Of a DNA stretch of 18,223 nt, positions 1-147 are shown piece by piece. Within the stretch, counting starts at the first letter, position 1. The number at the start of each line of letters is the position of its first letter. The notes below the pieces were generated by a model. The model was given only the letters and a program-made list of their open reading frames with translations. It was not told where the DNA came from and made no database searches. Position numbers and translations under genes: made by a program. The stretch comes from a virus. Lineage: Duplodnaviria; Heunggongvirae; Uroviricota; Caudoviricetes. Location: positions 1 to 18,223 of the IMG/VR virus record IMGVR_UViG_3300029875_000034; one strand, given 5' to 3'.

Positions 1-69
1 TAGCTCAGTAGGTAGAGCAACTGACTTGTAATCAGTAGGTCACCAGTTCGATTCCGGTAGTCGGCACCA
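1..69 (+). tRNA. tRNA-Thr (anticodon UGU), 5' end truncated by the window edge
   Basis: Anticodon stem-loop ACTGA/CTTGTAA/TCAGT gives anticodon TGT; T-arm GGTCACCAGTTCGATTCCGGTAG and acceptor 3' end GTCGGCACCA with encoded CCA. From memory it matches E. coli thrU, but the genomic context differs. Confidence 0.85.
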
Positions 70-72
70 TAT

Positions 73-147
73 GCGGGCATCGTATAATGGCTATTACCTC
101 AGCCTTCCAAGCTGATGATGCGGGTTCGATTCCCGCTGCCCGCTCCA
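73..147 (+). tRNA. tRNA-Gly (anticodon UCC)
   Basis: Acceptor stem GCGGGCA...TGCCCGC followed by TCCA; anticodon loop CTTCCAA gives UCC; T-arm GCGGGTTCGATTCCCGC. From memory it matches E. coli glyT. It lies only 3 nt after the Thr tRNA. Confidence 0.85.

What the first reader, a model, noticed from the sequence alone, without database searches (positions are those of the whole stretch)
1..147. Thr(UGU) and Gly(UCC) tRNA genes 3 nt apart, directly upstream of the lysis cassette
Both tRNAs look identical to host thrU and glyT as I recall them, but the host operon order is thrU-tyrU-glyT-thrT and no tyrU lies between them here. They sit in the position where lambdoid phages carry late-region tRNAs. 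This suggests a phage-borne tRNA pair, possibly acquired from the host tufB-operon region with loss of tyrU.
Basis: partly seen in the sequence, partly recalled or inferred. Interest (0 to 1): 0.45.

Follow-up and report, generated by a model that had tools for sequence, protein, structure and literature searches.

The report
Host-copied Thr–Gly tRNA pair in prophage
A lambda-like E. coli prophage carries exact copies of two host tRNA genes (thrU and glyT) fused 3 bases apart just ahead of its lysis genes; this is a common, already annotated kind of phage tRNA cargo, most likely a supply of tRNAs for codons the phage uses more than its host.

Summary
Window 1-69 is the 3' 69 nt of a tRNA-Thr(UGU) gene cut by the window edge. 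Bases 70-72 are a TAT spacer and 73-147 is tRNA-Gly(UCC). Both genes match E. coli thrU and glyT at every base.

They are phage-borne. In loci sharing this DNA, a Q antiterminator, pR', a terminator and a dedicated promoter lie upstream. The pair is the 3' half of a four-tRNA array: Ile-type CAU, an odd Lys-UUU, Thr and Gly. A structured leader, a terminator and a phage-21-type holin follow.

The Thr-TAT-Gly pair recurs in at least 135 loci. They have five Q types and at least 13 downstream contexts, and tufB is never adjacent. About 10% of complete E. coli genomes carry this version.

Host origin is supported, but loss of tyrU is not proven. TAT equals the host base after thrU plus the two bases before glyT. 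One rearranged prophage keeps the host thrU-tyrU spacer and 35 nt of tyrU.

The likeliest role is extra tRNA for ACA and GGA/GGG, which the phage uses 2-2.6 times more than the host. The rival is replacement of tRNAs cut by the P2 Old and PARIS nucleases. That is weakened because this allele keeps every known sensitivity feature.

It is a known kind of feature, of modest interest.

The parts
1..69 (+). tRNA-Thr(UGU) gene, positions 8-76 of 76 (the 5' 7 nt lie outside the window); identical to host thrU
   Evidence: Rfam RF00005 at 54.8 bits, flagged as cut at the 5' end. The full 76-nt gene is present in loci identical over 1-440. 76/76 match to K-12 thrU. The anticodon stem is ACUGA/UCAGU, 5 bp, with both CNG motifs, and U16 and U20 are retained.
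70..72 (+). 3-nt spacer TAT joining the two tRNA genes
   Evidence: TAT in 130 of 135 pair loci. It equals 'T' (the first base 3' of host thrU) plus 'AT' (the last two bases 5' of host glyT).
73..147 (+). tRNA-Gly(UCC) gene, identical to host glyT
   Evidence: ARAGORN. Rfam at 64.9 bits. 75/75 match to K-12 glyT, with homology ending at the gene ends.
148..335 (+). Structured late-operon leader: three long hairpins (about 154-199, 207-277, 278-329) immediately after tRNA-Gly
   Evidence: MFE z = -5.5 for 148-438. RNAalifold on 12 homologues at 73-100% identity gives 56 pairs, 9 of them with compensatory double changes. Present after 48 of 125 pairs and in HK639. No Rfam family matches.
351..378 (+). 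Intrinsic terminator (GC hairpin 354-369 plus U-run) closing the tRNA unit, to be read through by Q-modified polymerase
   Evidence: Terminator scan; fold z = -3.45.
439..654 (+). Phage-21-type class II holin, first gene of the lysis cassette (context)
   Evidence: Pfam PF04971 'Bacteriophage P21 holin S', E 1.4e-35.
659..2070 (+). Rest of the lysis cassette (context): DUF1327/YdfR gene 659-1009, lysozyme 1073-1606, Rz 1603-2070
   Evidence: Pfam PF07041, PF00959, PF03245.

Best explanation
What it is (near certain): the 3' half of a phage-borne tRNA array in the late-operon leader of a lambdoid E. coli prophage with a phage-21-type lysis cassette and HK97-type head genes. [quoted passage not shown] The Thr and Gly genes are exact copies of the single-copy host genes thrU and glyT. 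They are fused with a TAT spacer into a unit that moves among lambdoid phages.

How it most likely works (inferred): the array is transcribed from its own promoter, so it can be made in the lysogen. During lytic growth it is also transcribed by Q-modified RNA polymerase reading through both terminators from pR'. Spacers are only 1-3 nt and CCA is encoded. RNase P cleavage at each 5' end followed by 3' exonuclease trimming should therefore release mature tRNAs indistinguishable from the host's. The effect is a higher supply of the minor tRNAs that read ACA and GGA/GGG (plus AUA from the first gene). The phage uses these codons 2-3 times more than the host, so late and accessory genes are translated faster.
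For: Identity and position.

Dedicated promoter: TTGCA(A/G)-17 nt-TATTAT plus a GC-rich discriminator lies 9 nt before the first tRNA. The hexamers and spacing are conserved in 43 loci with 28 different upstream sequences, including ones whose spacer and upstream DNA are unrelated.

Terminators before and after the array. Phage 21 has the same logic, with an experimentally annotated pR', Q-binding element and terminator in front of its tRNAs.

Codon usage (window genes against 42 K-12 genes): ACA is 0.20 vs 0.10 of Thr codons; GGA is 0.21 vs 0.08 and GGG 0.23 vs 0.12 of Gly codons; AUA is 0.13 vs 0.04 of Ile codons (p from 2e-5 to 4e-11). Ranked by phage/host ratio among 59 codons: AGG 1, AGA 2, AUA 3, GGA 5, ACA 7, GGG 8. 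The four anticodons of this array family (CAU, UCU in sibling arrays, UGU, UCC) therefore cover 6 of the top 8.

The same ACA argument was made for phage SfI (PMC3636060).

Functional constraint: stem changes are compensated, for example Gly 6:67 C:G to U:A in 58 loci, Gly 49:65 and Thr 5:68, and TAT is kept in 130/135.

Background knowledge: thrU and glyT are single-copy genes for minor tRNAs, so one extra copy is a large relative gain. T4 carries the same four anticodon species.
Against: All rare codons are enriched in the phage, including CGG and CCC, for which the array has no tRNA. The match is therefore suggestive rather than specific.

The most abundantly made protein, the major capsid protein (7990-9216), has no ACA, AUA or AGA/AGG codons. 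The highest-demand gene therefore does not need Thr(UGU).

No expression or fitness data exist for this array.

The window does not contain the promoter. Its own upstream is inferred from relatives: 301 genomes share the full arrangement and 516 share the Thr-Gly-leader part.

Sibling alleles show changes at nuclease-contact positions, which points to a second selective force on the family.
Confidence: 0.55

Rival explanations
1. Anti-defence spare parts. The array replaces host tRNAs destroyed by tRNA-targeting immune nucleases carried by competing elements, namely P2 Old and PARIS AriB. The Thr(UGU) gene would be the key component, as in phage 21.
For: P2 Old kills by cutting host tRNA-ThrU(UGU), and phage 21's own tRNA-Thr(UGU), at the same genomic position, rescues (PMC12445682). 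AriB's main targets are Lys(UUU), Thr(UGU) and Asn(GUU) (PMC12409363). Lambdoid late-region arrays hold exactly these anticodons: Asn+Thr in phage 21, Lys+Thr here. Within the pair family, 38/130 Thr copies carry U16C, a change that impairs AriB cleavage of tRNA-Lys. The only recurrent stem-breaking changes are at Thr 27:43 and 28:42 (10 loci), which shorten the stem and remove the 3' CNG motif. Those are the two features required together for Old resistance.
Against: The window's allele is base-for-base the sensitive host tRNA. It has a 5-bp anticodon stem, both CNG motifs, U16 and U20. The Old paper reports that extra host tRNA-ThrU gives little or no protection, and that resistance needs both a CNG change and stem shortening. 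No nuclease is known to target Gly(UCC). FaRel2 co-targets Gly and Thr tRNAs, but it comes from a Firmicute and reads the acceptor stem, which is unchanged here. 121/135 pairs keep the host-type stem.
Confidence: 0.25
2. Largely neutral passenger or recombination joint. The tRNA genes persist because their host-identical and inter-phage-identical sequences act as crossover points that shuffle late-region modules, not because their products matter.
For: Homology between phages and with the host breaks within 1-2 nt of the tRNA ends, and there are at least 13 unrelated downstream contexts and 5 Q types. Chimeric genes exist: JLK-2012 Thr has a 5' third from phage-21 Thr and the rest of thrU type; HK639 has a pseudo-Gly; one locus has a CAU/Thr fusion. 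All four combinations of the two main Thr and two main Gly alleles occur, at 36/19/17/7. Host flank has been picked up in L142.
Against: Cloverleaf pairing is maintained by compensatory changes. The spacer and the promoter hexamers are conserved across diverged flanks. The anticodon set matches phage codon bias. Recombination at the genes is compatible with their being functional.
Confidence: 0.12
3. Chromosomal junction. The window starts inside the host thrU-tyrU-glyT-thrT-tufB operon and the phage begins after glyT.
For: Only the sequence identity of the two genes to thrU and glyT.
Against: The host has 8 nt + tyrU (85 nt) + 116 nt between the two genes and thrT 6 nt after glyT. None of this is present. 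Flanks are unrelated to the host. Loci identical over 1-440 have Q upstream. EF-Tu is adjacent in 0/135.
Confidence: 0.01

Closest known systems
[quoted passage not shown]
   Same: Same genomic slot: Q, pR', terminator, tRNAs, S21-type pinholin. Same strand as the late operon and the same UGU anticodon (PMC3636060).
   Different: Thr21 differs from thrU at 26/76 positions and has a 4-bp altered anticodon stem that resists P2 Old. The window's Thr is identical to host thrU and is paired with Gly(UCC) instead of Asn. The array here has its own promoter.
Stx-phage 933W-type ileZ-argN-argO tRNA genes downstream of Q (from my own knowledge; the ileX-like gene near stx2 is cited in PMC3636060)
   Same: An Ile-type CAU tRNA followed by further rare-codon tRNAs between Q and downstream late cargo. 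Sibling arrays here are CAU-Arg(UCU)-Thr-Gly.
   Different: The 933W set has no Thr-Gly pair.
Host tufB-operon tRNA genes thrU-tyrU-glyT-thrT
   Same: thrU and glyT are identical in sequence to the two phage genes.
   Different: tyrU, thrT, the host spacers and tufB are absent, and the context is a prophage late operon.
T4 tRNA cluster (from my own knowledge: Gln, Leu, Gly-UCC, Pro, Ser, Thr-UGU, Ile-CAU, Arg-UCU)
   Same: The same four anticodon species, tightly packed genes with spacers of a few nt, and the classic codon-supplement rationale. T4-like phages match Thr and Gly at about 80%.
   Different: T4 is a virulent phage. Its genes have diverged from the host's, and Gly and Thr are not adjacent.

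Membership tests
Late-region (Q-to-lysis) tRNA genes of lambdoid phages | Genuine tRNA cloverleaf genes | tested here: met
   ARAGORN and Rfam RF00005 score well above the curated threshold.
Late-region (Q-to-lysis) tRNA genes of lambdoid phages | Located between the Q antiterminator/pR' and the lysis cassette, on the late-operon strand | tested here: met
   The lysis cassette is downstream in the window. Q is upstream in loci identical over 1-440. Q is upstream in 94/105 and lysis genes downstream in 77/86 pair loci.
Late-region (Q-to-lysis) tRNA genes of lambdoid phages | Transcribed and processed into functional tRNA during infection or lysogeny | not testable with these tools
   Only inferred, from the conserved promoter, the terminators and compensatory substitutions.
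Chromosomal tufB-operon tRNA locus (thrU-tyrU-glyT-thrT-tufB) | Sequence of thrU and glyT | tested here: met
   76/76 and 75/75 identity.
Chromosomal tufB-operon tRNA locus (thrU-tyrU-glyT-thrT-tufB) | Operon context: tyrU between the two genes, thrT and tufB downstream, host flanks | tested here: not met
   (EF-Tu adjacent in 0/135).
Nuclease-resistant phage tRNA-Thr(UGU) (Thr21 / T5-type, anti-P2-Old / anti-PARIS) | UGU anticodon | tested here: met
Nuclease-resistant phage tRNA-Thr(UGU) (Thr21 / T5-type, anti-P2-Old / anti-PARIS) | [quoted passage not shown] | tested here: not met
   The window allele has ACUGA/UCAGU: 5 bp, with C28-U-G30 and C40-A-G42 intact.
Nuclease-resistant phage tRNA-Thr(UGU) (Thr21 / T5-type, anti-P2-Old / anti-PARIS) | D-loop U16C-type change that impairs AriB (shown for tRNA-Lys; PMC12409363) | tested here: not met
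   The window allele keeps U16 and U20. 38/130 sibling alleles have C16.
Nuclease-resistant phage tRNA-Thr(UGU) (Thr21 / T5-type, anti-P2-Old / anti-PARIS) | Rescue of Old or PARIS toxicity, or resistance to cleavage in vitro | not testable with these tools
   The literature reports little or no rescue by extra host-type tRNA-ThrU.

The most novel reading that the evidence does not exclude
The Thr-Gly pair may be an arms-race locus rather than a simple codon helper. Under this reading, lambdoid phages keep a host-derived thrU/glyT cassette in the late leader, and exchange with the host locus and with other phages repeatedly resets or reshuffles it. Lineages exposed to Toprim tRNA nucleases (P2 Old, PARIS) fix escape changes at contact positions: U16C/U20C, and disruption of 27:43 and 28:42. 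Neighbouring array members change anticodon identity: the Arg-UCU body becomes 'Lys-UUU' with C33, and thrU bodies acquire UUU or UCU anticodons. The window would then hold the naive, host-identical state of this locus. It sits next to a conserved, undescribed 185-nt structured leader RNA.
Probability: 0.25. Interest if true: 0.6.

Novelty: new member of a known kind. Interest (0 to 1): 0.3.

Why it matters
tRNA genes between Q and the lysis genes of lambdoid phages are long known (phage 21, Sf6, SfI, Stx phages). This pair is routinely annotated in hundreds of E. coli genomes, so the object itself is ordinary.

Three things are modestly useful.

1. The pair is a defined, widespread module: exact thrU plus glyT with a TAT joint. 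Its sequence and one rearranged relative tie it to the host tufB operon.
2. Its Thr gene is the same tRNA species recently shown to be the lethal target of P2 Old and a prime target of PARIS. The family contains host-identical (predicted sensitive) alleles and alleles changed at the published resistance positions. That natural allelic series makes 'codon supply versus immune evasion' directly testable in temperate phages.
3. Host-identical 75-nt repeats in prophages are potential sites for recombination with the chromosome.

Tried and rejected
- ARAGORN alone misses the truncated Thr gene. Rfam was needed.
- A chromosomal tufB-operon junction was considered and rejected.
- I looked for intermediates retaining tyrU remnants between Thr and Gly. 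A 13-43 nt gap scan of viral contigs found none. The thrU-to-tyrU scan found only the rearranged L141/L142 array, which lacks Gly. No complete E. coli genome has that junction.
- I tried to identify the window's own source so as to read its upstream. No record matches the full 18 kb.
- Guo, Kainz and Roberts 1991 on the phage 21 late region is not held in the library. I used the annotated phage 21 genome instead.
- Literature searches for thrU/glyT in prophages and for the LT-II phage tRNAs gave nothing specific.
- The promoter-like hit TCGGCA-16-TATAAT at 61-88 lies inside the tRNA genes (its TATAAT is the glyT D-arm), so I regard it as spurious.
- Rfam found no family for the structured leader. 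The antisense 'Plastid-ycf2' hits are tRNA-complement artefacts.
- FaRel2 co-targeting of Gly and Thr was considered as a reason for the pairing. It comes from a Firmicute, and no acceptor-stem escape changes are seen.

Full report
**1. The observation**

ARAGORN finds one tRNA gene in the window, tRNA-Gly(UCC) at 73-147. The first gene is missed because the window begins at its position 8. Rfam's tRNA model detects both genes. It scores 73-144 at 64.9 bits, and 1-66 at 54.8 bits, flagged as truncated at the 5' end. In loci identical to window 1-440, the first gene is a complete 76-nt tRNA-Thr(UGU). The spacer is TAT (70-72).

Aligned with K-12, the phage Thr gene equals thrU at 76/76 and the phage Gly gene equals glyT at 75/75. 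Homology stops within 1-2 nt of the mature ends. The host operon has 8 nt + tyrU + 116 nt between the two genes and thrT 6 nt after glyT. None of that is present here.

**2. Surroundings**

The window continues with these features:
- a 291-nt structured leader containing an intrinsic terminator (351-378)
- a phage-21-type class II holin (439-654, PF04971)
- a DUF1327/YdfR gene, a lysozyme and Rz
- a YfbU-domain gene on the opposite strand
- an HNH endonuclease, terminase, and HK97-type portal, protease and capsid genes
- tail genes

No deposited record matches the full 18 kb. The best are phage vB_EcoS-689R5 (97.8% over 74%) and genomes at about 94%. The window's own upstream must therefore be inferred from relatives. 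The first 440 bp occur at at least 80% coverage in 516 of 5,426 complete E. coli genomes and in four sequenced phages.

In vB_EcoS-689R5 and E. coli SMS-3-5 the upstream order is as follows:
- RusA, then a Q antiterminator (PF06323)
- a pR'-like promoter (TTGCAA-17-TATATT)
- a short transcript ending in a hairpin plus U-run
- a second promoter (TTGCAA-17-TATTAT, with a GC-rich discriminator)
- four tRNA genes with 1-, 2- and 3-nt spacers: an Ile-type CAU, a 'Lys'(UUU), Thr(UGU) and Gly(UCC)

Weak sub-threshold Rfam hits to isrJ/isrK coincide with the short pR' transcript. 301 complete genomes carry at least 80% of this entire arrangement.

Phage 21 has the same logic, with experimentally annotated elements: Q21, pR', Q-binding element, terminator, tRNA-Asn, tRNA-Thr, S21 pinholin.

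**3. The pair as a unit**

Pattern scans found Thr-(0-12 nt)-Gly in two collections:
- 10 loci among one-genome-per-species representatives: E. coli, Shigella flexneri, E. ruysiae, Citrobacter braakii and Enterobacter hormaechei, plus a 423-bp low-coverage contig labelled Corallococcus that is probably contamination

Of 135 places, 130 have the TAT spacer. The array types are:
- the pair alone: 54
- CAU-Lys-Thr-Gly: 36, plus truncated ones
- CAU-Arg(UCU)-Thr-Gly: 17
- Asn, a diverged Thr, then Gly: 6-7

Flanks outside the pair are unrelated between types. There are at least 13 downstream contexts. Five Q types lie upstream, in 94/105 loci. Lysis genes lie downstream in 77/86. EF-Tu is never adjacent.

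The sigma-70 hexamers, the 17-nt spacing and the GC-rich discriminator in front of the CAU gene are conserved even where the spacer and upstream DNA differ completely. This is comparative support for a dedicated promoter.

**4. Constraint and recombination**

Among 42 unique pair alleles, stem changes are mostly compensated:
- Gly 6:67 C:G to U:A in 58 loci, with U:G intermediates
- Gly 49:65 G:C to A:U
- Thr 5:68 A:U to G:C

My search pattern fixed Thr 53-76 and Gly 1-18, so those columns carry no information.

All four combinations of the two major Thr and two major Gly alleles occur (36, 19, 17 and 7), and several allele sets occur within single flank contexts. This indicates recombination within or beside the pair.

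Chimeric genes confirm it:
- JLK-2012's Thr has the 5' third of phage-21 Thr and the remainder of thrU type.
- HK639 has a pseudo-Gly whose 3' half is glyT.
- One locus has a CAU/Thr fusion.

**5. Origin**

Identity to thrU and glyT shows descent from those genes or their orthologues. It does not date the event, because two Salmonella contigs have identical genes (H7/H8).

Two observations bear on the tufB-operon idea.

- The TAT spacer equals the host base immediately 3' of thrU (T) plus the two bases immediately 5' of glyT (AT). A clean 206-nt deletion of the host operon would yield exactly this joint. Four of 64 trinucleotides would fit some split, so p is about 0.06.
- Two viral contigs from one genome (L141, L142) have the phage promoter, CAU, Lys and Thr genes followed by TCAAGTCC and GGTGGGGTTCCCGAGCGGCCAAAGGGAGCAGACTG. 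These are the exact host thrU-tyrU spacer and the first 35 nt of tyrU. They are joined to DNA that in other genomes lies just after the prophage Rz gene.

Host tufB-operon flank has therefore entered a phage array at least once. No array with a tyrU remnant between Thr and Gly was found. Host derivation is well supported. The specific 'tyrU was deleted' step is plausible but unproven.

**6. Function**

*Codon supply.* Window genes were compared with 42 K-12 genes.

| Codon | Share in window genes | Share in K-12 genes | Amino-acid family |
|---|---|---|---|
| ACA | 0.20 | 0.10 | Thr |
| GGA | 0.21 | 0.08 | Gly |
| GGG | 0.23 | 0.12 | Gly |
| AUA | 0.13 | 0.04 | Ile |
| AGA | 0.10 | 0.02 | Arg |

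Ranked by phage/host ratio, AGG, AGA, AUA, GGA, ACA and GGG are 1st, 2nd, 3rd, 5th, 7th and 8th of 59 codons. The family's four anticodon species therefore cover six of the top eight. A related phage, PhiR47_1, gives the same picture. The SfI authors made the same ACA argument.

Three caveats apply. All rare codons are enriched. CGG and CCC have no matching tRNA in the array. The major capsid gene has no ACA, AUA or AGA/AGG codons.

*Immune evasion.* Two published systems are relevant.

- P2 Old kills by severing the anticodon stem of host tRNA-ThrU at paired CNG motifs. Phage-21 Thr resists and rescues. Resistance needs both a CNG change and a shorter stem. Extra host tRNA-ThrU gives little or no protection (PMC12445682).
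- PARIS AriB chiefly cuts Lys(UUU), Thr(UGU) and Asn(GUU). U16C impairs its cleavage of tRNA-Lys (PMC12409363).

The window's Thr keeps the 5-bp ACUGA/UCAGU stem, both CNG motifs, U16 and U20. By these published criteria it is a sensitive allele.

Within the family, however, C16 occurs in 38/130 copies. The only recurrent stem-breaking changes are at 27:43 and 28:42 (10 loci), the positions that matter for Old. I therefore rank codon and dosage supply first for this window (0.55) and immune replacement second (0.25). I note that the family as a whole may be shaped by both.

**7. Comparison and verdict**

The feature is a member of the known class of late-region tRNA genes of lambdoid phages, which includes phage 21, Sf6, SfI and the Stx phages. 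It is not the chromosomal tufB locus, because the context test failed. It is not a member of the nuclease-resistant Thr(UGU) group, because the stem and D-loop tests failed.

The genes are already annotated as tRNA-Thr and tRNA-Gly in the public records. I found no paper describing the host-identical thrU-glyT pair as such.

My verdict is that the feature is real, ordinary in kind and of modest interest. Its main value is as a natural allelic series for testing codon supply against evasion of tRNA-targeting defences.

Noticed in passing
window 148-335 (also L140 1556-1740 in HK639; L009 6421-6607 in Enterobacter hormaechei): A leader of about 185 nt immediately after tRNA-Gly folds into three long hairpins (z = -5.5 for 148-438). 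Across 12 homologues at 73-100% identity, 9 base pairs show compensatory double changes and the loops are highly conserved. No Rfam family matches. The function is unknown; candidates are a processing or stability element of the late mRNA, or an sRNA.
   Followed up: partly
L002 7915-7991 (gene 2 of the array, just upstream of window position 1): The gene called tRNA-Lys(UUU) is a homologue of the Arg(UCU) gene found at the same position in sibling arrays. Its anticodon loop is CCUUUAA instead of CUUCUAA, so it has C at the near-universal U33 position, and it scores lower in Rfam (44 bits). Other relatives have further loop variants at this position, called Leu-UAA, 'Phe-AAA' or undetermined. 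Its anticodon stem lacks CNG motifs. It could be a nuclease-resistant Lys tRNA or a decaying gene.
   Followed up: partly
L086 (Thr-body gene with anticodon UUU); L005 588-660 (annotated tRNA-Arg in phage SerU-LTIIb): Rare pair alleles keep the thrU body but have anticodon UUU (2 loci) or UCU (1 locus). These are apparent anticodon switches on a Thr tRNA scaffold. Their charging identity is unknown.
   Followed up: no
L142 3164-3285 and L141 (IMG/VR contigs from genome 2681813004): A phage array CAU-Lys-Thr is followed by the exact host thrU-tyrU spacer and the first 35 nt of tyrU. This is joined to DNA that normally lies after the prophage Rz gene, so the lysis cassette is missing. It is a rearranged prophage carrying a patch of tufB-operon flank.
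   Followed up: partly
L004 2494-2569 (JLK-2012); L140 about 1480-1555 (HK639): There are chimeric tRNA genes. JLK-2012 Thr has positions 1-26 from phage-21 Thr and the rest of thrU type, with a 3-bp anticodon stem. HK639 has a pseudo-Gly whose 3' half equals glyT and whose 5' half cannot pair with it.
   Followed up: yes
82 nt upstream of lone pairs, e.g. L006 2412-2493: Pairs that stand alone are preceded by a conserved long inverted repeat (GGTTCYGAGGGG ... CCCYGARGAACC) ending 3 nt before tRNA-Thr. Upstream of it is a TATTAT/TATCAT element. This may be the late promoter and leader of those phages.
   Followed up: no
window 659-1009: A DUF1327/YdfR-family gene (116 aa) is inserted between the holin and the endolysin. 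Phage 21 has no such insertion: there the endolysin follows the holin directly.
   Followed up: no
window 2498-3037 (minus strand) and 2226-2492: A YfbU-domain gene on the opposite strand, and an 88-aa ORF with no Pfam match, sit between Rz and the HNH/terminase genes. This is a moron-like insertion that is absent at this spot in SMS-3-5.
   Followed up: no
L002 7659-7732: The short transcript predicted from the pR'-like promoter to the first terminator gives weak, sub-threshold Rfam hits to isrJ and isrK (24.5 and 22.7 bits). These are Hfq-binding sRNAs from Salmonella.
   Followed up: no
window 61-88: The best promoter-like match in the region (TCGGCA-16-TATAAT, 10/12) lies inside the Thr 3' end and the Gly D-arm. 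It is almost certainly a by-product of the tRNA sequence.
   Followed up: partly
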